Shown here: one piece after another, positions 12,595 through 24,719 of the stretch
How the letters are laid out: each line of letters opens with the position of its first letter
How positions within the stretch are numbered: position 1 is the stretch's first letter
Assembly: GCA_029856045.1 (NCBI GenBank)
Contig: JAHQWG010000028.1
Location: 96,001-160,000 of the forward strand
Reading direction: 5' to 3'
DNA length: 64,000 bases
Source of the DNA: Promethearchaeia archaeon
GTDB taxonomy: Archaea; Asgardarchaeota; Lokiarchaeia; Sigyniarchaeales; SOKP01
Translations under genes and position numbers: made by a program
Notes under the pieces: model-generated
The model's database searches: none
What the model was told of the DNA's origin: nothing
The model's input: the letters and a program-made list of their open reading frames with translations, nothing else

Positions 12595-13335
12595 CTATTT
12601 CCCCAATCGGCGAGTTCTTCTTAGGTATTCTCTAATATCTTTTATCAGCATTTCCTCATTATAATCAGGCCAAAAATCGTCGCGAAATCTAAACTCTGCG
12701 TATGAAGCATCCCACAATAAAAATCCTGAAATTCTTTTGCCATCTTTCATTCCTGTCCGGATAATGTAATCTAATTCGGGAAAATCTTTAGTGTATAAAT
12801 AATTTTTAATTAAATCAATATTTACATCCTTTGGGTCTATCTTATCCTCCAAGATTGATTTTACTGCGTCGATTATCTCTAATCTCCCATCATACATTAT
12901 GCATATATTCAAAAATTTTTGGTCGTGGTCTTTTGTCTTTTCAATAAGTTCATTAATTTTTTTTCTTACATCAAGTGGCAATAGTGATAATCTACCGATT
13001 ACATTTATTCGAACTTTCTCTTCTTTTATAACCGGATCGTTGCTGATAATATCAATTACATTAATAATCAAACCATAAATATACTGAAGTTCTTGGGGAC
13101 TTCGTTTTTTAACGTTTTCATTTGATAATGCAAAGATGCTTAAATATTTAATACCCAGATCTAACAAGCTAAATAATATTTTCCTTAAAGTTTCATACCC
13201 TGCCAAGTGTCCCAAATTAACATTAAGATTTCTTTTTTTTGCCCATCGGCGATTTCCATCAAGAATAAGTCCAATATGTCTGGGTAATTTGCCCTTTGCT
13301 TCTTTTTTCAATTTTTCCAAGCTGTTTGCCACCAA
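12595..13335 (-). CDS. uppS: cis-prenyltransferase (undecaprenyl/polyprenyl diphosphate synthase)
   Basis: HIGLILDGNRRWA, LSNEN, YDGRLEI, IIRTG...RISGFLLW, WPDY, RRLGK. Confidence 0.92.
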   Translation of the reverse strand: MVANSLEKLKKEAKGKLPRHIGLILDGNRRWAKKRNLNVNLGHLAGYETLRKILFSLLDLGIKYLSIFALSNENVKKRSPQELQYIYGLIINVIDIISNDPVIKEEKVRINVIGRLSLLPLDVRKKINELIEKTKDHDQKFLNICIMYDGRLEIIDAVKSILEDKIDPKDVNIDLIKNYLYTKDFPELDYIIRTGMKDGKRISGFLLWDASYAEFRFRDDFWPDYNEEMLIKDIREYLRRTRRLGK

Positions 13336-13615: not shown

Positions 13616-15259
13616 ATGAAGAATGGTAAAATTCAGTTTAGCGATATAGGAATCGACTCTATTGGTTTTTATGCACCAAGATTTTGCTTAGATTTAAAAG
13701 ATCTTGCAATTTTACGGAAAGTTGATCCAAATAAATATAAAAAGGGATTGCTTTTAAAAGAGATGAGATTCCCTGAAATTGGTGAAGATATTGTATCAAT
13801 GGGTTTAAAAGCCGCTCATAATGCTTTAATTAGGGGTCGTATTGAGCCAAAAAATATTGATGCCGTATTTGTTGGAACTGAAACAATAACTTATGCTGTT
13901 AAATCAGTTTCAAATATACTTGCTCAATTATTAGGGATTTCAATAAATTCTTTAACTCAAGATGTATATAATGCTTGTGCTGCAGCTACACTTGCTATAC
14001 TTAATGCAATTGCTTTAATCGAAAAAGATGTAATTAAAAGAGCATTAGTAATTGGAGCCGATGTGTCTTCCTACAATTTAGGTAGTCCTGGAGAGCCCAC
14101 ACAAGGAGCAGGTGCAGTTGCTTTAGTTTTATCCAAAAATCCACGAATTGCGACCTTTAGTAAGAAATTTGGAAAAATTTCAGGAAATGTTAATGATTTT
14201 TATAGACCTGTTAATAAAGAAGTTCCAACTGTATTTGGACGATATTCTGTTGATTCTTATCTTAATTTTCAATTGGGAGCATTTGATGATTTAACCAAGA
14301 ATATTGGTGATTTTTATGCGGACTACTATGTATTTCACGCTCCTTATTCGAAACTCGCATTAAAATGTATGCAACAAATAATTCTTAAGCGGTGGACTGC
14401 GAAAATACGTGACGTATTAAAAGTTGAACCTAATCATATAAGAGCTTCAATAGCTCGAAAAATTAATGACTTTTTCCAAAATATAAGCATTATTCCTGAA
14501 TTTATTTCCGTTAAATTGAAAGATAAAGGTTTTGCATTAACCCAGTTAGACCATCTCAAAAATTGGGTGCTTGCAAATATCAAAAATAGAGTAATACCTC
14601 AATTAAGGGTTCCTCAACATTTTGGGAATATGTATAGTGCCTCAGTATGGGCTCAAATATTATATATTTTTGAGAATTTTTCTCGTGTGAATGATACAAT
14701 TTATTTTGGATCCTATGGTTCAGGAGCAACTTGTATTACTGGTTTGTTAAAAGTTCAACCAAGATTTCATAGTGTTGTTAAAAGAAAACCACAAATAAAT
14801 GATTATTTTAAGATAAAGGAACTTAAAAGTGCTGAAGAATACGAGCAAATAAAGCAAGGTCTATTAACTCCACGTATTAGCTTGGGACATATAGAGGAAT
14901 ATCAAAAAAATAAAGCAAAAGGTTTTACACTGCATTTTTGTGATGAAGGATGTATAATTCCACACATGGAGGGATTAAATTATTGTCCTAAAGGGCATTC
15001 TGGTTTTTATACGAAGTTTTTCCCACTATTTGCGGTGTTAATTTCTGATCCGATAGATGCAAATGGAAATAACCTTAGGTTTCTAAAAGAGGATTTAGTA
15101 AGAATTCAAGGTTACCCAAAAATCGGAAATCTTTTAGAATGTGAGATGCGCCGTGTTGAAAGTACATTTGAAGATCAATCATTAAGTAGTGGATTGTTAA
15201 ACTGGACCCCTACTTATATTCCTTTAGATAAATCAGTTTATCATTACATTCAGCCTTAG
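13616..15259 (+). CDS. hydroxymethylglutaryl-CoA synthase with C-terminal DUF35-like (zinc ribbon/OB) extension
   Basis: VGTET (Glu), NACAAA (Cys), EPTQGAGAVA, FHAPY (His), GNMYSAS, GSYGSG; extra C-terminal CxxxC...CPKGH...KIGNLLECEMRR. Confidence 0.88.
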   Translation: MKNGKIQFSDIGIDSIGFYAPRFCLDLKDLAILRKVDPNKYKKGLLLKEMRFPEIGEDIVSMGLKAAHNALIRGRIEPKNIDAVFVGTETITYAVKSVSNILAQLLGISINSLTQDVYNACAAATLAILNAIALIEKDVIKRALVIGADVSSYNLGSPGEPTQGAGAVALVLSKNPRIATFSKKFGKISGNVNDFYRPVNKEVPTVFGRYSVDSYLNFQLGAFDDLTKNIGDFYADYYVFHAPYSKLALKCMQQIILKRWTAKIRDVLKVEPNHIRASIARKINDFFQNISIIPEFISVKLKDKGFALTQLDHLKNWVLANIKNRVIPQLRVPQHFGNMYSASVWAQILYIFENFSRVNDTIYFGSYGSGATCITGLLKVQPRFHSVVKRKPQINDYFKIKELKSAEEYEQIKQGLLTPRISLGHIEEYQKNKAKGFTLHFCDEGCIIPHMEGLNYCPKGHSGFYTKFFPLFAVLISDPIDANGNNLRFLKEDLVRIQGYPKIGNLLECEMRRVESTFEDQSLSSGLLNWTPTYIPLDKSVYHYIQP

Positions 15260-15264
15260 GGTCA

Positions 15265-16473
15265 ATGATGTTTAAAAATGTTCCCAAATCTATTGCAAAT
15301 CAATTAAAAAACGACCATAATGAGATTTTAAACTATCTAATTAAAAGGAATTATAATATTCATTCTCTCCCTACAAACAGAAAGGCAATATCTAAAGAGG
15401 GAGAAGCATATACACTGGCATATCCTATTCAAGGAGTACTTAAATATCATGGGTTAGTAAGTAAAGAACACCGAATCTCTTATTTTCCCAGTGTTTCTTT
15501 TAATAATAATGCAGGTTTTACAGTCACTTATTTAAAATTTGATAAGCAATTAAAAGAAGATATTGCAATTTTAAATGGAGAAAAATTATCAAACAATAAT
15601 TTAAAGAGAATTGTAATTTCTTTAGATCTAATTAGAGAATATTCAAAAATTAAGGTAAAAGCTTTATTAATTTCAAGTAATTTTTTAAATTCTTCGCATA
15701 AATTGTTAACTGGTAAAGGATTAGGAACATCTGCTTCTGGATCTGCAGCTCTTGCTTTAGCTGCAATTTCGGTATTATATAACAATGAATCAGAATATAT
15801 TGAAAATAATCGATTAATTAGCTTATTTTCTAGATATTTAGCTGGATCTGGAACACGTAGTGCCGCAGGAGGATTCGCACTTTGGTTGAGTCATCCTACA
15901 ATAGATCCATTTGACTGTTTTGCAATCCGCCTTGATAGAGAAGAACACAAAAAATTTGTTAATAAAATTTCCCTTATAACTATTCCAATCAATTCTGATT
16001 TAAAAACCGAACAGGTTCATAAGATTGCCCCAAAATCGCCTTTTTTTCCTTCTTGGTTAAAAGAACGGAAAAGAAAGGTTTTTGATTTCTTTTACGCATT
16101 AGATAATTGTGATTTGAATAAAATTGGAGAATTAGCGGAATATGATACAATGTGTTTGCATTTAATAACAATGACTGCCCAACAAAAACAAAATATTATT
16201 GCTTGGAAACCAGATACTCTAGCGATTATGCTTCGAGTTCAAGAACTACGTGCATCCGGTTATAATGTATATTTTTCAATCGATACGGGTCCTTCAGTGG
16301 TATTATTAACATATAAAAATGAAAAAAATAGTTTAATTAATAATTTAAAAGATTTAAATCCAAATTTTGACATTATTGAGGGACAAATTGGAGGAGCAAG
16401 TAAGTTAATTCATGCTAATTCTCCCAATGCTCAACTGCTAAAAGAAGATATAAATAAATTTAATATTTCTTAA
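15265..16473 (+). CDS. mvaD: GHMP-family mevalonate decarboxylase, phosphomevalonate decarboxylase type
   Basis: YPIQGVLKYHG N-terminal motif, GLGTSASGSAALA, AGSGTRS, SIDTGPS. Confidence 0.85.
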   Translation: MMFKNVPKSIANQLKNDHNEILNYLIKRNYNIHSLPTNRKAISKEGEAYTLAYPIQGVLKYHGLVSKEHRISYFPSVSFNNNAGFTVTYLKFDKQLKEDIAILNGEKLSNNNLKRIVISLDLIREYSKIKVKALLISSNFLNSSHKLLTGKGLGTSASGSAALALAAISVLYNNESEYIENNRLISLFSRYLAGSGTRSAAGGFALWLSHPTIDPFDCFAIRLDREEHKKFVNKISLITIPINSDLKTEQVHKIAPKSPFFPSWLKERKRKVFDFFYALDNCDLNKIGELAEYDTMCLHLITMTAQQKQNIIAWKPDTLAIMLRVQELRASGYNVYFSIDTGPSVVLLTYKNEKNSLINNLKDLNPNFDIIEGQIGGASKLIHANSPNAQLLKEDINKFNIS

Positions 16474-16490
16474 ATTATATATGTAAAATA

Positions 16491-17771
16491 ATGAATGATA
16501 TCAACTCTAATATTCCTGGATTTTATAAATTATCAATTGATGAACGTCAACAAGTAATAACTAAACTTGTTAATCTTAATACAGAAGATCTTAAGTTGTT
16601 AAAAAATTATGGATATATTTCTCCTTCTCAACTAGATACATTAATAGAAAACGTTATAGGAAGCTTTCACTTACCACTTGGTATTGCCTGTAATTTTAAA
16701 ATTAATAATAAAGATTACATAATACCAATGGTTATTGAAGAACCATCTGTTGTGGCTGCAGCTTCAAACGCTGCAAAAATTGCGAGAAAATTAGGTGGTT
16801 TCTATTCTGAAAAAGTCAAGTCAATTATGTTTTCTCAGATACAAATCACGAATATAAAAGATATTAAAACTGCAAAAGACAATATTCAAAAAAATAAGGA
16901 AACTATCCTAAAAATTGCAAATGAACAGGATCCCTTGTTAGTAAGTTTAAATGGTGGAGCAATTGATCTTGAAATTCGGGAAATATCAACAAGAAAAGGA
17001 CCCATGTTAATTATCCATTTATTAGTTAACGTTTTGGATGCAATGGGCGCAAATGTCGTAAATACCATGGCAGAAGCGGTGGCTCCATATTTAGAAGATA
17101 TTTGTAATGGTCATATTTATTTACGAATTTTATCTAACTTAGCGATACATCGTCTTGCAAGGTGTAGAGCTGTTTTTGATAAAGAGTTATTAGGTGGAGA
17201 TAAGGTAGTTGAGGGAATAATAAATGCTTATGAATTTGCACTCGCTGATCCTTTCAGAGCAACAACGCATAATAAAGGTATAATGAACGGAATTATAGCT
17301 TTAACAATGGCTACAGGAAATGATACCCGCGCTATTGAAGCTGGGGCTCATGCATTTGCGGCATTAAGTGGAAATTATTCTCCTTTGACAAAATTTCAAG
17401 TTGATTCAGATGGAAACTTAGTTGGAGAAATAGAATTACCTCTTGCTCTTGGCATTATAGGGGGTATGACTAAAATACATCCAATGGCGCGGTTAGCGTT
17501 AAAGATTTTGGATATTAAAAGTGCTAATGAGCTTTCTCAAGTAGCTGCGGCTCTTGGCTTGGCTCAAAATGTAGCTGCTCTAAGGGCTTTGGCTTCAGAG
17601 GGAATTCAGAAAGGACATATGTCCCTACATTCGAGAAATATTGCAAAACTGGCGGGTGTACCTGAAGAATTAATAGAAAAAGTTGCACAAAAGTTAGTGG
17701 AAGATAAAAAAATTAGAGTTGATTATGCGAAAGAAATATTGCAAAAAATAATTGATGGTGAAAACCTTTAG
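16491..17771 (+). CDS. mvaA: class II (bacterial-type) HMG-CoA reductase
   Basis: ENVIG, EEPSVVAAAS, DAMGAN, ILSNL, THNKGIMNG, GNDTRA, GIQKGHMSLH. Confidence 0.93.
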   Translation: MNDINSNIPGFYKLSIDERQQVITKLVNLNTEDLKLLKNYGYISPSQLDTLIENVIGSFHLPLGIACNFKINNKDYIIPMVIEEPSVVAAASNAAKIARKLGGFYSEKVKSIMFSQIQITNIKDIKTAKDNIQKNKETILKIANEQDPLLVSLNGGAIDLEIREISTRKGPMLIIHLLVNVLDAMGANVVNTMAEAVAPYLEDICNGHIYLRILSNLAIHRLARCRAVFDKELLGGDKVVEGIINAYEFALADPFRATTHNKGIMNGIIALTMATGNDTRAIEAGAHAFAALSGNYSPLTKFQVDSDGNLVGEIELPLALGIIGGMTKIHPMARLALKILDIKSANELSQVAAALGLAQNVAALRALASEGIQKGHMSLHSRNIAKLAGVPEELIEKVAQKLVEDKKIRVDYAKEILQKIIDGENL

Positions 17772-17862
17772 TTTTTAAAATTTGTTAATTTAACTTTTCT
17801 AAAAAAAGATAATAATGTAAATAATTGTATTATTAAAAATAAGTCTTAGATGATTGAAATTT

Positions 17863-19164
17863 ATGGGATTTAGAGAATATATAAATCAAATTGATGAGAA
17901 AGGCCTTCTTCGAAAGGTGGACATTGAAGTATCTAAGAAATTAGAGATCTCTGGAATTTTAAAAGAGATTGAACCAACCCCAGTAATGTTTAATAATATT
18001 AAAGGATCGGAATTTCGCGTGATTGGAAATTTATTCTGTACTAAGAATGTAATTGCTTCATATTTCGACGTATCTCCGGCAGATCTCATACCAATGCTTT
18101 CTAAAGCGATAACTGAACGCTCAGAACCAGAGATCGTGTCAAACGCCCCTTGTCAAGAGATAATAGAATCAAGCGTAGATTTAGATAAATTACCAATTTT
18201 ATTCCATTGCGAAAAGGACGGCGGAAATTACATTAGTTCCGCAGTTGTTATCACTAGAGATCCTGATTATGGACAAAACCTGGACTTTCATAGAGCCATG
18301 CAGTTTTCCAAAGATAAATTTGCTACTCGAATAGTTAGAGGTCGTCATTTTCATAAATTTTTAGAAAAAAATGGTGAACTAGAAGTCGCTTTTTGTATTG
18401 GAAATAGCCCTAACATTCTTATTGCAGGAGCAACTTCTGTGGATATTGGAGTTGATGAATTGCATATTGCAAATGCATTAGAATCAATAAAAGTTGTTAA
18501 AGCAAATTCAGTTGATCTTTTAATTCCTGCAGAAGCTGAATTTGTTTTAGAAGGAAGGGTCTATATGGAAGAAAACCATGCTGAGGGTCCCTTTGTCGAT
18601 TTGACAGAAACCTATGATGTTATAAGAGAAGAACCTATTTTTGAAGTTAAAAAAATCACACATAGAAAAGATGCGATTTGGCAAGCCTTATTACCGGGGG
18701 CGCTTGAACATAAAATATTAATGGGTATGCCAAGAGAACCAACGATTTTTAATAAAGTGAATGAAACAGGAGTTAAATGCTTAGATGTTAATATAAATCC
18801 TGGGGGATGCTCCTGGTTACATGCAATTGTGCAAATTGATAAAAAATCAGAAGAAGATGGAAAAAAAGCTATTAATGGTGCTTTTACTGGCCATACTAGT
18901 TGTAAACACGTGTTTATTGTAGATAAAGATATTGATATTTATAATCCATTATCTGTGGAATGGGCAATGGCAACTCGCTTTCAAGGTGATATTAGAATGA
19001 TTATTAAAGATAAAGAACCAGGAAGTAGTTTAGATCCTAGCGCAGAGCCAGGTACAAAAATGACAACTAAAATTGGATTTGATTTAACAAAACCACTTGT
19101 AGTTAAAGGAAAGAGCTTTGATATAGCGGATTTCCCAAAAGTAGACTTGAACAAATATTTTTAA
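17863..19164 (+). CDS. UbiD-family decarboxylase; likely anhydromevalonate phosphate decarboxylase
   Basis: EGPFVDLTETYD, EHKILMGMPRE, VDKDIDIY...VEWAMATR, GSSLDPS; lies directly upstream of aconitase X genes inside a mevalonate operon; ATG at 17863 preferred. Confidence 0.85.
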   Translation: MGFREYINQIDEKGLLRKVDIEVSKKLEISGILKEIEPTPVMFNNIKGSEFRVIGNLFCTKNVIASYFDVSPADLIPMLSKAITERSEPEIVSNAPCQEIIESSVDLDKLPILFHCEKDGGNYISSAVVITRDPDYGQNLDFHRAMQFSKDKFATRIVRGRHFHKFLEKNGELEVAFCIGNSPNILIAGATSVDIGVDELHIANALESIKVVKANSVDLLIPAEAEFVLEGRVYMEENHAEGPFVDLTETYDVIREEPIFEVKKITHRKDAIWQALLPGALEHKILMGMPREPTIFNKVNETGVKCLDVNINPGGCSWLHAIVQIDKKSEEDGKKAINGAFTGHTSCKHVFIVDKDIDIYNPLSVEWAMATRFQGDIRMIIKDKEPGSSLDPSAEPGTKMTTKIGFDLTKPLVVKGKSFDIADFPKVDLNKYF

Positions 19165-19177
19165 TATAGAGGAGTCG

Positions 19178-20377
19178 ATGAGATTGAAATTAACATCAGA
19201 AGAAAAAGAGATGTTGGAAGGTAAGCAAGGAAGATCTGCTCAAAAATCCATGGAGATATTAACCACATTAGGTGAAATATTTGATGCAGAATGTATGATT
19301 GAGGTTTATAGCGTGCAAATAGCAGGAGTTTCCTATGCAAATTTAGGGGAAGCAGGTCTAGAATTTTTAAATGAGATGGCAGAAGATGGAAAGGTTAGGG
19401 TTTTAACAACTTTAAATCCAGCTGGAATGGACCGAGAAAATTGGCAAGCTTTAGGAATTGAAGAAGAATTTGCTATTAATCAAAACCGTGCTATAGATGC
19501 TTTTGCAAAAATGGGTATAATTACAACATGTTCTTGTACACCATATTTAATAGGAAATGTACCTCACTTTGGTCAGCATATTGCTTGGGCTGAGAGTAGT
19601 GCTGTCTGCTATTCAAATTCTGTCATTGGTGCTCGAACAAATCGTGAAGGTGGTCCGAGTGCGCTAGCTGCTGCTTTAACTGGAAAAACACCAAAATATG
19701 GTTATCATCTAGACAAAAATCGTCATGGACAGGTCTTATTTGAAGTTAAGGTTCCAGTGAAAGGTACAGATGAATTTGGCGTGTTAGGAAAAATAATTGG
19801 GGATAAATTGGTTGAATTAGGAAAGAAAATACCTTATATTACTGGAATTTCTTCAGCAACAGTTGAGGAACTTAAGTCATTTTGCGCTTCAGTGGCTACT
19901 TATGGAGGTACAGCATTATTTCATATGGAAGGCATAACCCCAGAATATAATATGTATCCTAAGCCAAAAGATGATATTTTTGAAATTAATCAGGATAACC
20001 TTAATAAAACTCGGTCTGATCTTATTGATGATGATATTGAAATTGATTTCGTTAGTATTGGGTGTCCTCACGCTTCAATTCACGAAATAGCAACAATTGC
20101 AAGTTTATTGAAAGGTAATAAAGTAAATAAAGAATTTTGGATTACTACTGCTCGACCTACAAAAAGAATTGCAGATGAAGCTGGCTATTCTAAAATTATT
20201 GAGGATGCTGGGGCCAAATTCGCTTCAGATACATGTTGTGTTGTAGCTCCTATTAAAGGTCGCTTTAAAGGAATTATGGTAGATTCAGCTAAAGCGTGTT
20301 ATTATGGCCGTGCAAAGAATAAATTTAAAGTAAAAATTGGCTCAATCGAAAAATGTGTTGAGGAGGCGGTAAAATGA
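19178..20377 (+). CDS. aconitase X catalytic subunit; likely phosphomevalonate dehydratase large subunit
   Basis: GVSYANLG, TLNPAG, TCSCTPY, AWAESSA, GARTNREG, IGCPH, DTC; SD-like GAGGAG upstream. Confidence 0.88.
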   Translation: MRLKLTSEEKEMLEGKQGRSAQKSMEILTTLGEIFDAECMIEVYSVQIAGVSYANLGEAGLEFLNEMAEDGKVRVLTTLNPAGMDRENWQALGIEEEFAINQNRAIDAFAKMGIITTCSCTPYLIGNVPHFGQHIAWAESSAVCYSNSVIGARTNREGGPSALAAALTGKTPKYGYHLDKNRHGQVLFEVKVPVKGTDEFGVLGKIIGDKLVELGKKIPYITGISSATVEELKSFCASVATYGGTALFHMEGITPEYNMYPKPKDDIFEINQDNLNKTRSDLIDDDIEIDFVSIGCPHASIHEIATIASLLKGNKVNKEFWITTARPTKRIADEAGYSKIIEDAGAKFASDTCCVVAPIKGRFKGIMVDSAKACYYGRAKNKFKVKIGSIEKCVEEAVK

Positions 20378-20763
20378 AGTTAGAAGGAAGAAAAATTTAT
20401 AAAGGAACTGCTGAGGCAGAAGCAATTGTAACAAAAGATGGTATTTCATTTTATGGTGGCGTTGACCCTGATACTGGTAAAGTTGTCGAGGTTGGACATG
20501 AACTTGAAGGTCAATCCATAACAGGAAAAGTTTTAGTCTTTCCTACTGGTAAGGGTTCAACTGTAGGGTCATACACAATGTATAGAATGAAAAAAAAAAA
20601 TACGGCACCAGTAGCAATCGTAAACAAACAAATAGATACAATCGTAGCAGTAGGTTGCATAATTAGTGAAATTCCTTGTGTAGATAAAATTAATATTAAT
20701 AATATTAAAACCGGACAAAAAGTTATTGTTAATGGTTCCGAAGGTACTGTGGAGGTGAAATAA
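20374..20763 (+). CDS. DUF126 aconitase X swivel subunit; likely phosphomevalonate dehydratase small subunit
   Basis: ISFYGGVDP.TG, GKVLVFP.GKGSTVGSY; 4-nt overlap with the large subunit gene. Confidence 0.9.
   Translation: MKLEGRKIYKGTAEAEAIVTKDGISFYGGVDPDTGKVVEVGHELEGQSITGKVLVFPTGKGSTVGSYTMYRMKKKNTAPVAIVNKQIDTIVAVGCIISEIPCVDKININNIKTGQKVIVNGSEGTVEVK
20751..20758 (+). promoter_or_regulatory. Shine-Dalgarno site for mvk
   Basis: GGAGGTGA ends 5 nt before ACG at 20764. Confidence 0.7.
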
Positions 20764-21730
20764 ACGGGAACTGGAAAAGGATATGGAAAGACCATCCTTT
20801 TTGGCGAAATTTTTTTCCCACTTCGGGGATAAACGCAATCATTTTGTGGTTTATGGTCTTCCCGCAATCGCATCGGCGTTAGGCGCTAATACAATCGCAG
20901 AAGTTAAAGTTGTTGAGGGACAAGGGTGGACTGTTGTCGATCAGAGACCCGCTACGACCGGCTATAAAAAAAAGAAATATGATGAAGGAATGCAATCAAT
21001 TAAAAATGTAATCAAGCATTTAAAAATAGATACAGAGAGTCAAAAACTTGGAATAACTTTTGCTGGAGATTTAATTGCTGCGAGTGGAGTTGGTGCTTCA
21101 GCGGCTCAATGTACATCACTAGCTCGGGCTTTAAACGACAGCTTTAATCTAAATTTAGACGATGAAAAGATAAATGAAGCTGCGTATGAAGGAGAGAAAG
21201 CATATCACGGAACCCCATCTGGTATTGACAACACAGCTTCAACTTATGGAGGATTGATTTGGTTTGTGAAAAACTTGAATGGTGGGAAAAATACTATGGA
21301 CCTCTTGCAATCACCAATAAAAATGCCATTAATAATCGCTAATTCAGGAATAACTGCTTCTACGATAGAAGTAGTTGCTGATGTTCGGCGTTTAAAAGAT
21401 AAAAATCCTAATAAATTTGAGAAAATTTTTAAGGAATATAAAGAAATAGCAGATAAAGCAAAAATGGCCTTACTTGAAGGAAATATTATTTCTTTAGGTA
21501 ATTTAATGAATCAAAACCACAAATTACTCCAAGAAATTACGGTTTCAGGAGAAATAAATGATAAATTAGTTCAAATAGCGTTAAAAAATGGAGCGATTGG
21601 TGCTAAAATGACAGGAACCGGGCGTGGTGGTTTAGTAATTGCTTTAGCTGAAAATAAAGAAATACAAGAAAAAATAGCCAAGGCAATCGAAAAAGGGGGT
21701 TATGATGCCTGGAAAACCATAATTGGATGA
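20764..21730 (+). CDS. mvk: mevalonate kinase; proposed spliced CDS join(20764..20808,20840..21730), 311 aa, ACG start
   Basis: exon 1 reads (M)GTGKGYGKTILFGE and exon 2 reads HFVVYGLPAIA; downstream SGVGASAA, HGTPSGIDN, GAKMTGTGRGG; SD GGAGGTGA at 20751-20758. Gene identity is secure, the splice model is inferred. Confidence 0.85.
20809..20839 (+). other. candidate 31-nt bulge-helix-bulge-type intron in mvk
   Basis: insert ATTTTTTTCCCACTTCGGGGATAAACGCAAT lies between GAA (Glu) and CAT (His) of the conserved GEH motif; folds as a hairpin with both junctions in 3-nt bulges. Confidence 0.65.
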
Positions 21731-21742
21731 GATTGATTTAAA

Positions 21743-22552
21743 TTGAATAACAATAATGAAATTTATCTATTGAAGTTAGGTGGAAGTTTATTAACTGATA
21801 AAAATAGACCCTTTTCTATTAGGAAAAATGTTGTTAAAAGCGCAGTTCAACAAATTATAGATGCTAATGAAAAATTAATATTAATTCATGGAGGAGGTTC
21901 GTTTGGCCATCCTCTTGCAAAAAAATACAACCTTTCAAAAGGAATAGATGCATCGATTCAAAATCAAATTCTTGGACTTACTGAAACTCACCAATCAATG
22001 AACAAATTCAATTCCTATTTAATTAATCAATTTTTAGAAAAAAAATATCCTGTATTATCAATTCAAGCTTCCAGCATTTTCATCAAAGATTCTCAAAATA
22101 TCTCAACTCAATCGATTAATGTTATTGAAACCGCCTTAGATCTTGATATTTTACCTATTTTGTATGGAGATATAATCCTTGATTCAAAGGGGTCATTCTC
22201 AATTATTTCTGGGGACCAAATCATCGTTGAATTATGTGAAAAAATTAAAAAGTATAATATCTTTAAAGTTATTTTCGCTATTGAAAAAGATGGATTATTC
22301 ATTAAAGAAAGAGTTAATAGCAAATTGAATATAAAACTGGCGAGAGAATTAAAATTCGAAGATTTAGATATAATTGAAATCGCTGATTTAGAAAGTAAAA
22401 TTGATGTAACAGGCGGAATTAAAGGTAAAATTAATAAAATCAAACAAATTTGTCAACAAAATATTCCCGTTCAAATAATAAATGGTTTAAAAGATGAATT
22501 TATACTTAAAGCATTAAAAAATCAAAATATTATTTCAACCAAAATAAAATGA
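21743..22552 (+). CDS. ipk: isopentenyl phosphate kinase
   Basis: LKLGGSLLTDK, IHGGGSFGH, YGD, SGDQI, DVTGGIKGK; mevalonate operon context. Confidence 0.9.
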   Translation: MNNNNEIYLLKLGGSLLTDKNRPFSIRKNVVKSAVQQIIDANEKLILIHGGGSFGHPLAKKYNLSKGIDASIQNQILGLTETHQSMNKFNSYLINQFLEKKYPVLSIQASSIFIKDSQNISTQSINVIETALDLDILPILYGDIILDSKGSFSIISGDQIIVELCEKIKKYNIFKVIFAIEKDGLFIKERVNSKLNIKLARELKFEDLDIIEIADLESKIDVTGGIKGKINKIKQICQQNIPVQIINGLKDEFILKALKNQNIISTKIK

Positions 22553-22562
22553 GCAAAGAATT

Positions 22563-23645
22563 ATGAATGAAAATGATATAAATAAGAGAAAACTGGATCA
22601 TCTAAAAATCCCAATTGAGGAGGATGTTCAACATTCTGAAAATTACTTCAAATATATTAAATTAATGCATCATTCTCTCCCTGAGGTAAATTTTGAAGAT
22701 ATCGATTTAACTACAAAATTTTTTGATAAACAAATATCGGCACCTATTTGTATTGCGGCTATAACTGGCGGACATGAAATTTCTAAAGAAATCAATAGGA
22801 TTCTTGCTACAGCCGCAGAATCAGAGAAAATCATAATGGGAGTGGGTAGTCAACGTGCTGGATTAGAAGATCTATCAACAGAGAACTCCTTTAAAGTGGT
22901 TCGAGAAGTTGCGCCTAATATTCCACTAATTGGAAATATTGGTATAGGGCAAATAAGTGAGAAAAATTTCAAAATTGAAAATTTTAAAAAATGCATTGAT
23001 ATGATTAACGCTAACGTAATGGCAATACATTTCAATGCTTTACATGAATTAGTTCAGGATAATGGGAATATCTCATATAATCTTTTCCGTTCAAATTTTC
23101 AAAAAATAAGAGAAAATATTAAGATTCCAATAATAGCAAAAGAAGTTGGAACTGGAATTAGTAAAGAAATGGCTTTAACACTTGAAAATCTCGGATTTGA
23201 TGGATTTGATGTAGGGGGTTCAGGTGGAACAAGTTTTGCTGCAATTGAATCAAAGCGAAAGAGTTATGTCGTTGAAAAATATTCACGTAACCCAGCAGAT
23301 CTTTTTAAAGATTGGGGAATACCAACTCCTGTAAGTATAATTAATGTAAGGAAAGTTTCAAATAAATTTATTATTGCGACCGGTGGACTTAGAAATGGAG
23401 TTGATATTGCTAAATCCATTATTTTAGGTGCTGATATTGGCGGATTTGCTTATAATTTCCTAGTATCTGCGTGGAAAGATTATCAAAATGATACTATTAG
23501 CAATACCATAAAGGAAATTAGAACTTTAAAGCATGAGATACGCTCTTGTCTATGGTTAATGAATTTAAAGAATATAAATGAATTAAAGAATAGTTCTAAT
23601 AAAAGAGTTATTCTTGGTATATTATATGAGTGGTTAAATCAATAA
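22563..23645 (+). CDS. fni: type 2 isopentenyl-diphosphate delta-isomerase (FMN-dependent)
   Basis: RKLDHL, ITGG, GVGSQR, GNIG, HFNALHE, KEVGTG, GGTSFAAIE, WGIPT. Confidence 0.93.
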   Translation: MNENDINKRKLDHLKIPIEEDVQHSENYFKYIKLMHHSLPEVNFEDIDLTTKFFDKQISAPICIAAITGGHEISKEINRILATAAESEKIIMGVGSQRAGLEDLSTENSFKVVREVAPNIPLIGNIGIGQISEKNFKIENFKKCIDMINANVMAIHFNALHELVQDNGNISYNLFRSNFQKIRENIKIPIIAKEVGTGISKEMALTLENLGFDGFDVGGSGGTSFAAIESKRKSYVVEKYSRNPADLFKDWGIPTPVSIINVRKVSNKFIIATGGLRNGVDIAKSIILGADIGGFAYNFLVSAWKDYQNDTISNTIKEIRTLKHEIRSCLWLMNLKNINELKNSSNKRVILGILYEWLNQ

Positions 23646-23651
23646 TTCTGC

Positions 23652-24719
23652 TTAAAACTTACGCTCAATGACATATTTTAGTAAATTTTCAAAAAATTCT
23701 GCCTCAGATTGATTAATATTTGGAATTAACTCATCAAGCTGAATCCTAGCAATTTTAGCATAATCATTTACTAGGTTCTTACAAGAATATACAGTCTCAG
23801 CTTCAAGAAATAAATCCTTGACTTCTTGAATTTCCTCATCTTTTATATCAGGATTTCCAATTAAATCAAGGATCTTTTCTTTTTTATTGTAATCTAATTT
23901 TTCAAGAGCATCTATTAACAAACAAGTTTTCTTACCTTCCCTTATATCTCCATTTGTAGGTTTTCCAGTAATTTTTTCATCTCCAAAAGTTCCTAATATA
24001 TCATCGGTCATTTGAAAGATGATTCCTAGATTAATCGCATATTTAGAGATGTTTTGAAGAAATTTATCCTCAACTCTAGCATAATTCGCGCCAATTAACA
24101 TTGCTTTTTCTATTAATGCACTGGTTTTTAATGAAATCATTTCAATATATTCTTGCATTCGTAAAGATTCTCGATTTACCATGTCTAATTCGATTAATAC
24201 ACCATTACTGATCTCTTTAAATGCCTGTTCATAATATTTAATAGCTGTAAGATTTTGGTCGAGATTAAACTCATTATCAAAAAAAGCTTCTAAACCAAAA
24301 AAGAACGCTGAATCTCCACCTATAATCCCTATAGAATTACCATAATCTTCTTTATTCATTTTTTGAAACGTTAACTTCGAATAGTATTGTTTAAATCTAT
24401 AATGAAATGCGGGACAATTTCGCCTAAAATCATCCTTATCTATAATATCATCATGAATTAATGAAGCGTTATGAAGAAATTCTACACCTACACTGGGAGA
24501 AACAATCTTATCATCTCTTTCGAGGTTAAATGCGTTATATGTAGCAATGCAAATCAAAGGTCGTAAACGTTTTCCACCAACTAAAAAATAATCCATTAAC
24601 TCTTGATAATAATCTTTTAAAAATGGATTCTTTACCTCATTTAACTTCTTTTCATAAATTCTCTTTATCGCATTATTGATTTTAGGCTTGTACATATTCA
24701 AATATTCTGGAACTTTCAT
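23652..24719 (-). CDS. trans-polyprenyl diphosphate synthase (GGPP synthase family)
   Basis: GGKRLRP, LIHDDIIDKDDFRR (first Asp-rich motif), KT, FQMTDDILG (second Asp-rich motif), DIREGKKT. Confidence 0.92.
   Translation of the reverse strand: MKVPEYLNMYKPKINNAIKRIYEKKLNEVKNPFLKDYYQELMDYFLVGGKRLRPLICIATYNAFNLERDDKIVSPSVGVEFLHNASLIHDDIIDKDDFRRNCPAFHYRFKQYYSKLTFQKMNKEDYGNSIGIIGGDSAFFFGLEAFFDNEFNLDQNLTAIKYYEQAFKEISNGVLIELDMVNRESLRMQEYIEMISLKTSALIEKAMLIGANYARVEDKFLQNISKYAINLGIIFQMTDDILGTFGDEKITGKPTNGDIREGKKTCLLIDALEKLDYNKKEKILDLIGNPDIKDEEIQEVKDLFLEAETVYSCKNLVNDYAKIARIQLDELIPNINQSEAEFFENLLKYVIERKF

What the first reader, a model, noticed from the sequence alone, without database searches (positions are those of the whole stretch)
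15265..20763. Two alternative lower mevalonate routes encoded in one operon
Seen: a GHMP decarboxylase with the PIQGxxKYHG N-terminus sits in the same co-directional cluster as a UbiD decarboxylase and both aconitase X subunits, plus IPK, and no phosphomevalonate kinase is present. Known: haloarchaeal/Chloroflexi phosphomevalonate decarboxylase (motif recalled from Haloferax) converts MVA-5-P to isopentenyl phosphate using ATP. The Aeropyrum/Methanosarcina-type route does the same via an Fe-S dehydratase and a prFMN decarboxylase without ATP. Organisms usually have one or the other. Inference: redundancy allowing a switch between an ATP-saving O2-sensitive route and an ATP-consuming O2-tolerant one, or a pathway replacement caught in progress.
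Basis: partly seen in the sequence, partly recalled or inferred. Interest (0 to 1): 0.75.

Follow-up and report, generated by a model that had tools for sequence, protein, structure and literature searches.

The report
Dual mevalonate-phosphate routes in Asgard cluster
This Loki-type Asgard archaeon keeps, in one gene cluster, both the ATP-saving iron-sulfur/prenyl-flavin route and an ATP-driven decarboxylase route for the same lipid-precursor step. Relatives show this is a long-kept but dispensable backup, a kind of pathway mosaic already recorded in Asgard genomes.

Summary
Window 13616-23645 (+) holds HMGS, a 402-aa MVD-family decarboxylase, class II HMGR, UbiD, AcnX large and small subunits, MVK, IPK and IDI2. 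The genome has no PMK, one UbiD, one AcnX and a UbiX elsewhere.

- **The decarboxylase:** it belongs to the ~400-aa Lokiarchaeial "PMD" clade, which carries the N-terminal helix seen in Thermoplasma MBD. It keeps every PMD-type signature, the catalytic triad and the two adenine-binding residues that MBD has lost.
- **AcnX:** it keeps all cluster and MVA5P ligands of T. kodakarensis phosphomevalonate dehydratase.
- **Relatives:** the same layout recurs in 13 species-level genomes of four genera. dN/dS is 0.17-0.40, so selection is purifying but the weakest in the cluster. Other relatives show deletion scars, a different DMD-like decarboxylase beside AcnX, or the PMD-only form.

The dual state is therefore old, selected and repeatedly lost, not a single replacement caught midway. 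A regulated switch is untested, although a conserved TATA-like spacer splits the cluster in two.

Mosaic MVA gene sets are already published (Zhu 2024, including PMD+AcnX+AMPD counts in its Table S3). Activities here are inferred, not assayed.

The parts
12595..13335 (-). cis-prenyltransferase (UPPS-type), divergent from the cluster
   Evidence: PF01255 208 bits. It holds the same position in relatives.
13616..15259 (+). HMG-CoA synthase (bacterial/eukaryotic type) with a ~130-aa C-terminal tail that matches no Pfam family
   Evidence: PF01154 and PF08540, TIGR01835 236 bits. The tail has no Pfam hit. Homologues in relatives are 528-578 aa (one cut at a locus edge).
15265..16473 (+). MVD-family decarboxylase of the Lokiarchaeial ~400-aa clade; inferred ATP-dependent phosphomevalonate decarboxylase (MVA5P to IP)
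   Evidence: Families. PDB hits 6n0x (PMD) and 7t71 (MBD). Signature columns. Trees. AF2 model pLDDT 96. Foldseek TM 0.89-0.93 to PMD and DMD chains, with the longest alignment to 7t71. dN/dS 0.31-0.40.
16491..17771 (+). class II HMG-CoA reductase
   Evidence: PF00368 359 bits, TIGR00532 474 bits.
17772..17862 (+). AT-rich spacer. A T-run and a TATA-like block follow the HMGR stop, and a GAGATGA ribosome-site-like motif precedes the UbiD ATG. Possible internal promoter or terminator.
   Evidence: Sequence. The first ~35 nt and the last ~20 nt are conserved across genera while the middle varies. In two relatives 1-2.5 kb of other DNA is inserted here. The function is inferred only.
17854..19164 (+). 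[quoted passage not shown] The likely start is the ATG at 17863 (433 aa).
   Evidence: Pfam and TIGR00148. It is the only UbiD in the genome. It lies next to AcnX in the fetched loci that keep the AcnX cluster (19 of family f1, two of f24). Homologues are 433 aa. UbiX is at contig C11.
19178..20377 (+). AcnX large subunit; inferred phosphomevalonate dehydratase (PMDh) large subunit
   Evidence: PF04412 495 bits. Best PDB hit 7cnr_A, E 7e-100, with C110, C283, C342, A47-S50, N53, N79, E129, S131 and K361 all conserved (residues from PMC8184944).
20374..20763 (+). AcnX small (swivel) subunit of PMDh
   Evidence: PF01989 121 bits, NF003046 178 bits. 7cnr_B E 7e-40, with the GKGSTVGS catalytic Ser motif identical.
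20764..21730 (+). mevalonate kinase, the only one in the genome. The reading frame is interrupted by a 31-nt insert at 20809-20839 inside the GKxILFGEH motif.
   Evidence: TIGR00549 209 bits. No second MVK by tblastn. The insert is seen in the sequence. See earlier finding e1-5583025.
21743..22552 (+). isopentenyl phosphate kinase
   Evidence: NF040647 207 bits, above the cut-off of 120.
22563..23645 (+). type 2 IPP isomerase
   Evidence: TIGR02151 361 bits.
23652..24719 (-). short-chain (GGPP-type) prenyl diphosphate synthase, convergent with the cluster
   Evidence: PF00348 183 bits.

Best explanation
The cluster encodes a complete mevalonate pathway with two parallel branches from mevalonate 5-phosphate to isopentenyl phosphate. 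MVK upstream and IPK downstream are shared by both.

**Branch 1, the archaeal route.** The AcnX heterodimer (a [4Fe-4S] phosphomevalonate dehydratase) makes trans-anhydromevalonate phosphate. The UbiD enzyme (AMPD) decarboxylates it using prFMN supplied by UbiX, which is encoded on another contig.

**Branch 2, a one-enzyme bypass.** The 402-aa protein is an ATP-dependent phosphomevalonate decarboxylase of the Lokiarchaeial clade. It would phosphorylate the 3-OH of MVA5P and then eliminate phosphate and CO2.

The bypass gene was inherited vertically within the order. It has been kept beside the archaeal route in at least 14 sampled species under purifying but comparatively relaxed selection. 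It is dispensable, because relatives have deleted it or replaced it with a DMD-like decarboxylase.

I read it as a backup that needs no Fe-S cluster, no prFMN and no anoxia. It costs one extra ATP per IPP.

**Shown:** gene content, residues, fold, phylogeny, conservation and selection.

**Inferred:** both enzyme activities, co-expression and the physiological role.
For: **Gene set and absences**
- Gene content and family scores.
- No PMK; one MVD-family gene, one UbiD and one AcnX in the genome; UbiX present.

**The decarboxylase is PMD-type**
- IQG, KYHG, G154, T248, H252, D294 and S338-x-D340-T341 match the PMD state.
- The triad K60/R198/D340 is kept.
- The adenine-binding pair S137/N139 is 100% conserved, while the MBD clade mostly has Arg there (50% and 88% of its rows). 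PMC5177888 reports that MBDs lack both adenine-binding residues.
- The discriminators of the 6n0z N20K/H194M mutant are in the PMD state here: His252 is present and there is no Lys.
- The AF2 model has pLDDT 96. Its best Foldseek hits are A. thermophila PMD and bacterial DMDs (TM 0.89-0.93). 7t71 MBD gives the longest alignment, which includes the N-terminal helix.

**Orthologues are the only available route elsewhere**
- In all 7 sampled genomes of the sister family, which includes close kin of Promethearchaeum, the orthologue is present and no AcnX was found.
- Zhu 2024 calls PMD the sole route in MK-D1.
- Members from AcnX-positive and AcnX-negative genomes do not differ at the signature columns.

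**AcnX and UbiD are mevalonate-type**
- All ligands of TkAcnX with bound MVA5P are conserved (PMC8184944).
- In two relatives UbiX lies inside the cluster.

**Conservation and selection**
- The same layout occurs in 13 genomes of four genera.
- dN/dS is 0.31-0.40 within the genus and 0.17-0.24 in other pairs. Neighbouring genes range from 0.03 to 0.30, with mevalonate kinase overlapping the decarboxylase range.

**Trade-off reported in the literature**
- ApPMDh is sensitive to O2 and H2O2, and the archaeal route saves ATP.
Against: - No member of the Lokiarchaeial clade has been assayed.
- The protein scores far below the NCBIfam equivalog cut-offs (153 against 475 for PMD; 161 against 560 for MBD).
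- In the unrooted tree it lies on the MBD side of the strongest split, and it shares the MBD-like N-terminal helix.
- Its dN/dS is the highest in the cluster within the genus. Relatives have deleted the gene, so it is not essential.
- UbiD could not be compared directly with a characterised AMPD. The best solved hit is 6h6v, a UbiD-family decarboxylase with no named substrate.
- There are no expression data. The only MVK needs an unusual 31-nt insert removed.
Confidence: 0.6

Rival explanations
1. The 402-aa protein is MBD-like or has a new function: an ATP-independent decarboxylase of a 3-phosphorylated intermediate, or a prenyl-diphosphate-binding regulator like GGPP-activated PtoMBD. It would then not be a true bypass.
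For: The best NCBIfam score is to the MBD model (160.8 bits). It sits on the same side of the 100-supported split as MBD and carries the N-terminal helix that PtoMBD has and PMD and DMD lack. 7t71 gives the longest structural alignment.
Against: Both adenine-binding residues, H62, Y61 and E292, which the MBD clade has lost, are invariant here. There is no M3K: this is the only MVD-family gene in the genome. Orthologues must act as PMD in genomes that have MVK and IPK but no AcnX, UbiD or PMK.
Confidence: 0.12
2. The decarboxylase gene is a leftover on its way to loss and contributes nothing. The archaeal route carries all flux.
For: It has the highest dN/dS in the cluster within the genus (0.31-0.40). 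Relatives show deletion scars at exactly this slot. 36 of the 69 family genomes searched have AcnX and no MVD-family gene.
Against: The frame is intact at 400-409 aa in all 14 AcnX-positive genomes of four genera. All catalytic columns are invariant. dN/dS is well below 1. Six relatives carry a DMD-like decarboxylase beside AcnX, two of them with scars of the lost gene, and three more carry another subtype elsewhere. This argues for continued selection for such an enzyme.
Confidence: 0.13
3. The protein is a diphosphomevalonate decarboxylase of a eukaryote-type route.
For: JGI and some NCBI records name homologues 'diphosphomevalonate decarboxylase'. TIGR01240 gives a weak hit of 100 bits.
Against: No PMK was found in a 100%-complete genome. 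His252 replaces the Met of DMD, and the Lys of DMD is absent. The IQG/KYHG/SxDTG motifs differ from the NIA/KYWG/TxDAG of DMD-like rows. The TIGR01240 score is below its cut-off of 171.
Confidence: 0.03
4. The AcnX and UbiD genes serve a non-mevalonate function, such as hydroxyproline dehydratase or an aromatic-acid decarboxylase, so only the PMD branch is real.
For: [quoted passage not shown] The best solved hit for UbiD is 6h6v, a UbiD-family decarboxylase with no named substrate.
Against: The AcnX is split, and it matches TkAcnX far better (E 7e-100 against 3e-62). N79 and the GVS loop that bind the 5-phosphate are conserved, as are the three Cys of the Type II cluster. The genes sit between HMGR and MVK in the family f1 loci fetched, and UbiX is inserted in the cluster in two relatives. 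Zhu 2024 counts the homologues in this order as AcnX and AMPD.
Confidence: 0.03

Closest known systems
Haloarchaea/Chloroflexi-type phosphomevalonate decarboxylase (e.g. Anaerolinea thermophila PMD, PDB 6n0x; NCBIfam NF040704 MvaD)
   Same: GHMP/MVD fold (TM about 0.9). IQG..KYHG, His252 (H194 in AthPMD), the SxDTG Asp loop, the P-loop, the triad and the adenine-binding Ser/Asn. It sits in a pathway with MVK and IPK and no PMK.
   Different: Only 28-29% identical. About 75 residues longer, with a confident N-terminal helix (residues 8-27). It scores 153 bits against a cut-off of 475. It lies on the other side of the best-supported split in the tree. Here it coexists with the AcnX/UbiD route.
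[quoted passage not shown]
   Same: N-terminal extension with an extra helix. Shared motifs (GSGTRSAAG, WLS.P.ID, W264). Same side of the tree. Catalytic Asp.
   Different: MBD has lost the two adenine-binding residues and H62, Y61 and E292, and it needs M3K and M3P5K. This protein keeps them all, and the genome has no M3K.
Archaeal mevalonate pathway of Aeropyrum pernix / Methanosarcina mazei (PMDh = AcnX Type II, AMPD = UbiD, UbiX, IPK)
   Same: Split AcnX with all TkAcnX ligands. UbiD adjacent, UbiX in the genome, MVK and IPK present.
   Different: Here a PMD-type decarboxylase is embedded in the same cluster. HMGS is of the bacterial/eukaryotic type with an extra tail, and HMGR is class II.
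Mosaic MVA gene sets of Asgard archaea (Zhu et al. 2024, PMC11052028)
   Same: That study reports Lokiarchaeial PMD sister to MBD. It reports CR-4 'DMD' without PMK, and Hodarchaeales with PMK+DMD plus AcnX+AMPD on one contig. Its Table S3 counts PMD+acnX+AMPD in one Lokiarchaeial MAG and about a dozen Bathyarchaeia and Thermoplasmatota genomes.
   Different: As far as I could read, the text does not describe or discuss the PMD-in-archaeal-cluster layout. It also does not cover its conservation across genera, its selection regime, the deletion scars or the non-orthologous replacement.
PMD-only clusters of the Promethearchaeum/Lokiarchaeum family
   Same: Orthologous decarboxylase (42-51% identity). 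The same HMGS-decarboxylase-HMGR order.
   Different: Those clusters lack UbiD and AcnX and use a different MVK type (29-34% identical to the window's).

Membership tests
Phosphomevalonate decarboxylase (PMD, EC 4.1.1.99) | MVD/GHMP fold | tested here: met
   PF22700 82 bits. AF2 model pLDDT 96, Foldseek TM 0.89-0.93 to PMD and DMD chains.
Phosphomevalonate decarboxylase (PMD, EC 4.1.1.99) | Catalytic Asp/Lys/Arg triad and P-loop | tested here: met
   K60, R198, D340 and G152-x-G154-x-S156 are conserved in 93-100% of the Asgard clade rows.
Phosphomevalonate decarboxylase (PMD, EC 4.1.1.99) | ATP (adenine) binding residues retained, unlike MBD | tested here: met
   S137 and N139 are 100% conserved. 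The MBD clade mostly has Arg at both columns (50% and 88% of rows). The criterion comes from PMC5177888. The mapping of these two columns to the published residues is my inference.
Phosphomevalonate decarboxylase (PMD, EC 4.1.1.99) | PMD-versus-DMD discriminators (His instead of Met; no Lys after the WG/HG motif) | tested here: met
   H252 is present and L64 stands in place of Lys. The same criterion is used in PMC11052028.
Phosphomevalonate decarboxylase (PMD, EC 4.1.1.99) | Scores above the curated equivalog model NF040704 | tested here: not met
   152.8 bits against a cut-off of 475. The Promethearchaeum orthologue P0070 behaves the same way. The model was built on haloarchaeal-type sequences.
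Phosphomevalonate decarboxylase (PMD, EC 4.1.1.99) | ATP-dependent conversion of MVA5P to IP | not testable with these tools
   Needs an enzyme assay. Indirect support: orthologues are the only candidate for this step in AcnX-free genomes.
[quoted passage not shown] | Loss of adenine-binding residues, and M3K and M3P5K partners present | tested here: not met
   The residues are retained. There is no second MVD-family (M3K) gene in the genome. NF040847 scores 160.8 bits against a cut-off of 560.
Diphosphomevalonate decarboxylase (DMD) | A PMK partner and the Lys/Met substrate-diphosphate residues | tested here: not met
   No PMK. His is present, not Met, and there is no Lys. TIGR01240 scores 100 bits against a cut-off of 171.
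AcnX Type II phosphomevalonate dehydratase (PMDh) | Split large and small subunits; three Cys ligands of the [4Fe-4S] site; MVA5P-binding residues including the 5-phosphate-specific Asn79 | tested here: met
   Alignment to 7cnr_A and 7cnr_B: C110, C283, C342, A47-G48-V49-S50, N53, N79, E129, S131 and K361 are conserved, and the small-subunit GKGSTVGS motif is identical. Leu27(S) is Tyr here (PMC8184944).
trans-Anhydromevalonate phosphate decarboxylase (AMPD, UbiD family) | UbiD fold with a UbiX partner, orthology to characterised AMPD, and MVA gene context | tested here: inconclusive
   All three UbiD domains are present. It is the only UbiD in the genome and lies adjacent to AcnX. UbiX is in the genome, and inside the cluster in two relatives. 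No characterised AMPD sequence was available for direct comparison.
Mosaic (chimeric) MVA pathway gene sets of Asgard archaea | Marker enzymes of two MVA pathway types in one genome or contig | tested here: met
   PMD-type plus AcnX and UbiD within 5.5 kb. The phenomenon is published.

The most novel reading that the evidence does not exclude
Having an MVD-type, ATP-driven bypass beside the Fe-S/prFMN route is itself under selection in this Asgard family, as a fail-safe.

Two non-orthologous decarboxylases have been installed in the same cluster: the Loki-type PMD and a DMD-like enzyme with the PMD-type His. One has displaced the other in genomes that still carry the scar of the first.

The bypass may break a circular dependency. 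AMPD needs prFMN. UbiX makes prFMN from dimethylallyl phosphate. Dimethylallyl phosphate comes from the very pathway that AMPD serves. The bypass may also protect against oxidative or iron stress on the [4Fe-4S] dehydratase.
Probability: 0.3. Interest if true: 0.6.

Novelty: new member of a known kind. Interest (0 to 1): 0.45.

Why it matters
The evolution of the mevalonate pathway is usually told as a series of replacements: archaeal type to haloarchaeal type to eukaryotic or Thermoplasma type. Asgard archaea sit at the centre of that story.

This cluster and its relatives show that the proposed intermediate state, with the old and new routes side by side, is not hypothetical or fleeting. It is a stable and heritable configuration. 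Single genera contain the dual form, the AcnX-only form, the PMD-only form and the form replaced by a DMD-like enzyme.

That gives a natural comparative system for testing what selects for the ATP-saving versus the oxygen-tolerant route. It also supplies candidate enzymes: an unassayed PMD clade that is the closest ATP-binding relative of MBD.

It does not overturn anything. Mosaic MVA gene sets in Asgard archaea are already published.

Tried and rejected
- **The search for related loci with the single protein** returned only three near-identical MAG contigs. The survey was done with the genome search instead.
- **The search for homologous proteins with UbiD** was meant to find a source name such as AMPD. 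It listed only Asgard UbiD homologues at 86% identity or above (mostly unnamed or labelled Promethearchaeota), named 'UbiD family decarboxylase' or '2,5-furandicarboxylate decarboxylase'. It gave no help with orthology to a characterised AMPD.
- **The sigma-70 promoter and intrinsic terminator scan** found fewer promoter-like sites than in shuffled sequence (47 against 57.8). It does not apply to archaea.
- **Pfam on the HMGS tail** gave nothing, even at E up to 10.
- **A literature search for the prFMN/DMAP circular dependency** in the archaeal MVA pathway found nothing usable. That idea rests on my own inference.
- **Assembly chimera or contamination** as the cause of co-occurrence is rejected. 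The layout recurs on 12 independent contigs.
- **A recent hybrid origin by recombination** between a PMD-only and an AcnX-only cluster is not supported. The HMGS and HMGR genes of the dual clusters are no closer to those of PMD-only clusters. AcnX-only and DMD-like relatives carry scars of the gene.
- **A second MVK or a hidden PMK** was looked for. The three other GHMP kinases are a pantoate kinase and two sub-threshold galactokinase/MVK-like proteins with no PMK signal.

Full report
**1. What is there**

The window is G000:C36:96001-160000 of a 3.34-Mb genome that is 100% complete. Its nearest public relatives are 'Promethearchaeota archaeon' MAGs, that is, Loki-type Asgard archaea.

From 13616 to 23645 nine co-directional genes lie 4-17 nt apart or overlap. 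The exception is one spacer of about 90 nt. Pfam and NCBIfam identify them as:
- HMG-CoA synthase (547 aa);
- an MVD-family protein (15265-16473, 402 aa);
- class II HMG-CoA reductase;
- UbiD (17854-19164);
- AcnX large subunit (19178-20377);
- AcnX small subunit (20374-20763);
- mevalonate kinase;
- isopentenyl phosphate kinase;
- type 2 IPP isomerase.

A cis-prenyltransferase diverges upstream and a GGPP-type synthase converges downstream.

In the whole genome there is:
- one MVD-family gene;
- one UbiD;
- one AcnX;
- a UbiX on contig C11, at 219 bits above its cut-off;
- no PMK by three families.

The other GHMP kinases are a pantoate kinase and two sub-threshold galactokinase/MVK-like proteins.

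**2. The decarboxylase**

*Sequence relatives.* The protein scores about equally on the MBD and PMD equivalog models (161 and 153 bits), far below both cut-offs. Its best solved relatives are A. thermophila PMD (6n0x, E 6e-31) and P. torridus MBD (7t71, E 2e-27).

*Homologues in public data.* Sequence searches recover a large family of proteins of about 400 aa. Almost all named members come from Promethearchaeota. They include the cultured Promethearchaeum (51% identity) and Lokiarchaeum ossiferum (48% identity, named phosphomevalonate decarboxylase by its source).

*Labelling the tree.* I scanned representatives against NCBIfam. P0193 is a true MBD (566 bits against a cut-off of 560). P0191 is a true haloarchaeal PMD (603 bits against 475).

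*Tree topology.* An IQ-TREE (PMSF, SH-aLRT) of 81 rows gives three partitions:
- MBD plus N-extended intermediates (support 98);
- the core Asgard clade (support 100);
- classical PMD with DMD nested inside it (support 100).

This reproduces the published statement that MBD is sister to Lokiarchaeial PMD (PMC11052028). The tree is unrooted.

*Signature columns.* The Asgard clade has the PMD state at I55-Q56-G57, K60-Y61-H62-G63, G154, T248, H252, D294 and S338-x-D340-T341.
- It keeps the K60/R198/D340 triad.
- It keeps S137 and N139, where the MBD clade mostly has Arg (50% and 88% of its rows).
- Vinokur et al. reported that MBDs retain the triad but lack the two nearly invariant adenine-binding residues (PMC5177888). 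I infer that S137 and N139 are those two residues.
- His252 corresponds to H194 of AthPMD. The residue aligned with N20 is Leu, not the Lys of DMD.

*Predicted structure.* An AlphaFold model built on 65 sequences is very confident (pLDDT 96, pTM 0.94). It shows a helix at residues 8-27 ahead of the canonical fold. Foldseek ranks AthPMD and bacterial DMDs first (TM 0.89-0.93). 7t71 gives the longest alignment, 372 columns. This fits the extra N-terminal helix described for PtoMBD (PMC9254496).

*Conclusion.* By sequence and fold this is an ATP-binding, PMD-type enzyme of a distinct clade. It is the closest ATP-competent relative of MBD. Its activity has not been assayed for any member.

**3. 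The other branch**

*AcnX.* The large subunit matches T. kodakarensis AcnX (7cnr/7cns, solved with MVA5P bound) at E 7e-100. The match to the hydroxyproline dehydratase type is E 3e-62. Every residue named for TkAcnX is conserved:
- the cluster ligands C110, C283 and C342;
- the phosphate loop A47-G48-V49-S50;
- N53 and the MVA5P-specific N79;
- E129, S131 and K361.

The small subunit has the identical GKGSTVGS catalytic-Ser motif.

*UbiD.* It has all three family domains and is the genome's only copy. It precedes AcnX in the fetched loci that keep the AcnX cluster. In two relatives a UbiX gene (PF02441) lies inside the cluster. I could not compare it with a characterised AMPD, so that assignment rests on context and on the published KO-based counts for this order.

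**4. How common is the dual state?**

I searched 301 Asgard genomes with the decarboxylase and with AcnX.

*The ~400-aa orthologue (E below 1e-90) occurs in 24 genomes:*
- 16 of the window's family f1, including all four of its genus;
- all 7 of the sister family f2;
- the single genome of f3.

*AcnX occurs in 256 of 301 genomes.* It is in none of f2 or f3.

*Co-occurrence.* Of the 16 f1 genomes with the orthologue, 14 also have AcnX. In 13 of those the two genes share a contig.

*Gene-order variants within f1:*
- **V1, the window's layout.** HMGS, decarboxylase, HMGR, UbiD, AcnX-L, AcnX-S, MVK, IPK/IDI2. Found in 12 genomes of three genera. G117 carries both genes on separate short contigs.
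- **V2.** The decarboxylase sits between AcnX-S and MVK (G207).
- **V3.** A different 339-aa DMD-like gene sits in that same slot, in six genomes. It scores 233 bits on TIGR01240, is 27-31% identical, and has the PMD-type His. It is nested in DMD-like rows. This is the 'CR-4 DMD without PMK' of Zhu 2024.
- **V4.** No MVD-family gene.
- **V5.** Decarboxylase only. UbiD, AcnX and the usual MVK are replaced by another MVK type (29-34% identity). Found in all of f2 and f3 and in two f1 genomes.

Across all Asgard genomes sampled, 36 of the 53 with any MVD-family gene also have AcnX.

**5. Is the gene alive?**

- Its frame is intact (400-409 aa) in every V1 and V2 genome.
- Nei-Gojobori dN/dS is 0.31-0.40 within the genus and 0.17-0.24 in five other close pairs. 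Neighbouring genes range from 0.03 to 0.30; mevalonate kinase (0.12-0.30) overlaps it.
- Selection is therefore purifying but the most relaxed in the cluster within the genus. Elsewhere it is similar to that on MVK.
- Signature columns do not differ between members from AcnX-positive and AcnX-negative genomes.

**6. History**

*Gene tree.* The decarboxylase tree follows taxonomy. The f1 rows cluster together. The AcnX-positive rows fall on one side of a branch (support 87). The f2 and f3 rows lie outside. This indicates vertical descent.

*Deletion scars.* In the HMGS-HMGR gap of genomes that lack the gene, tblastn finds remnants:
- 26 C-terminal codons at 62% identity directly before HMGR in G273 (E 4e-8);
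- 15 codons in G243 (E 8e-4);
- 21-24 internal codons in G141 (E 0.002-0.01).

G273 and G243 are V3 genomes. There the DMD-like gene has displaced the Loki-type gene while the AcnX/UbiD route stayed.

*Other occupants of the slot.* Elsewhere it holds UbiX or a glutamate-dehydrogenase-like gene.

*Reading.* The dual state is ancestral at least within part of the family. It has been lost or replaced repeatedly. It is a long-lived polymorphism rather than one replacement caught in the act.

**7. One operon or two?**

The ~90-nt HMGR-UbiD spacer begins with a T-run and a TATA-like block. In other genera this block reads TTTTATAAAA followed by a conserved ~20 nt. The spacer ends with a GAGATGA motif before the UbiD ATG, and its middle is variable.

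In two relatives 1-2.5 kb of other DNA is inserted here. This suggests that the UbiD-to-IDI2 half can be transcribed on its own. That would leave room for separate regulation of the half that carries the decarboxylase. This is inference from sequence conservation only.

**8. Mechanism proposed**

MVK makes MVA5P. Two routes then lead to IP:
- PMDh and AMPD dehydrate and decarboxylate it without ATP. They depend on a [4Fe-4S] cluster that is sensitive to O2 and H2O2 (PMC10040528) and on prFMN.
- Alternatively, the PMD-type enzyme spends one ATP to do the conversion in one step.

IPK then makes IPP.

The bypass would keep isoprenoid synthesis running when the Fe-S or prFMN-dependent enzymes are compromised. 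It could also prime prFMN synthesis, because UbiX uses dimethylallyl phosphate, which derives from this same pathway. That last point is my inference from the established UbiX reaction. I found no paper on it.

**9. Novelty**

Zhu et al. 2024 already describe the following:
- mosaic MVA pathways in Asgard archaea;
- the Lokiarchaeial PMD;
- the CR-4 DMD without PMK;
- Hodarchaeales contigs with PMK+DMD plus AcnX+AMPD.

Their Table S3 counts PMD+acnX+AMPD in one Lokiarchaeial MAG and in about a dozen Bathyarchaeia and Thermoplasmatota genomes.

What appears to be new here:
- the conserved cluster layout;
- the selection regime;
- the deletion scars and the non-orthologous displacement;
- the residue-level argument that the Loki clade is ATP-dependent.

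I therefore class this as a new member of a known kind, of moderate interest.

Noticed in passing
window 20764-20860: The only mevalonate kinase gene is interrupted. TGTGKGYGKTILFGE (20764-20808) is followed by a 31-nt insert (20809-20839), and HFVVYGLPAIA then resumes in another frame. The exon-1 frame starts at ACG directly after the AcnX small-subunit stop. An earlier finding of this scan reads the insert as a BHB-type mini-intron.
   Followed up: partly
window 14840-15259: HMG-CoA synthase carries a ~130-aa C-terminal tail with CDEGC...YCPKGH (zinc-ribbon-like). It matches no Pfam family even at E up to 10. Homologues in relatives are also 528-578 aa, so the tail is conserved.
   Followed up: partly
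L051-L056, L058-L060, L062, L070, L071, L073, L074, L085: In many relatives (genera g2, g3, g4, g6 and g9) IPK and IDI2 appear as one ORF of 630-637 aa (an IPK-IDI2 fusion). In the window's genus they are separate genes.
   Followed up: no
L059:15129-15689 (+) and L071:7077-7637 (-): A 186-aa UbiX-type flavoprotein gene (PF02441) occupies the HMGS-HMGR slot in two relatives. This is the slot where the window has the decarboxylase. In L070 the slot holds a Glu/Leu/Phe/Val dehydrogenase-like gene.
   Followed up: partly
window 13616-24719 versus L048 and L049, and other close pairs: Synonymous divergence is very uneven along the cluster. For the window against L048, dS is 0.13 for the decarboxylase, 0.65 for UbiD and 1.15 for the AcnX small subunit. 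The decarboxylase is repeatedly among the lowest. This suggests recombination between lineages within the cluster. Nei-Gojobori estimates in a 30% GC genome are rough.
   Followed up: no
window 17772-17862; spacers of L050-L063, L071, L072: A block directly after the HMGR stop is conserved across genera (CCTTTAG TTTTATAAAA..GT..TTCTGTAAC). A GAGATGA motif before the UbiD ATG is also conserved, and the middle of the spacer varies. Candidate archaeal promoter or terminator element.
   Followed up: partly
G000:C36:282418-283533 (L005:1282-2397), outside the window: A 371-aa GHMP kinase scores about equally on the galactokinase and mevalonate kinase models (125-136 bits), all below their cut-offs. 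Its substrate is unknown, and it has no PMK signal.
   Followed up: partly
L064:2100-4435: In relative G267 a phytoene/squalene synthase and an amine-oxidase (phytoene desaturase-like) gene lie between the HMGS and HMGR genes of the rearranged MVA cluster.
   Followed up: no
L065-L069, L085 (PMD-only clusters): PMD-only clusters use a mevalonate kinase only 29-34% identical to the one in AcnX-containing clusters. Loss of UbiD and AcnX therefore goes together with an MVK swap.
   Followed up: partly
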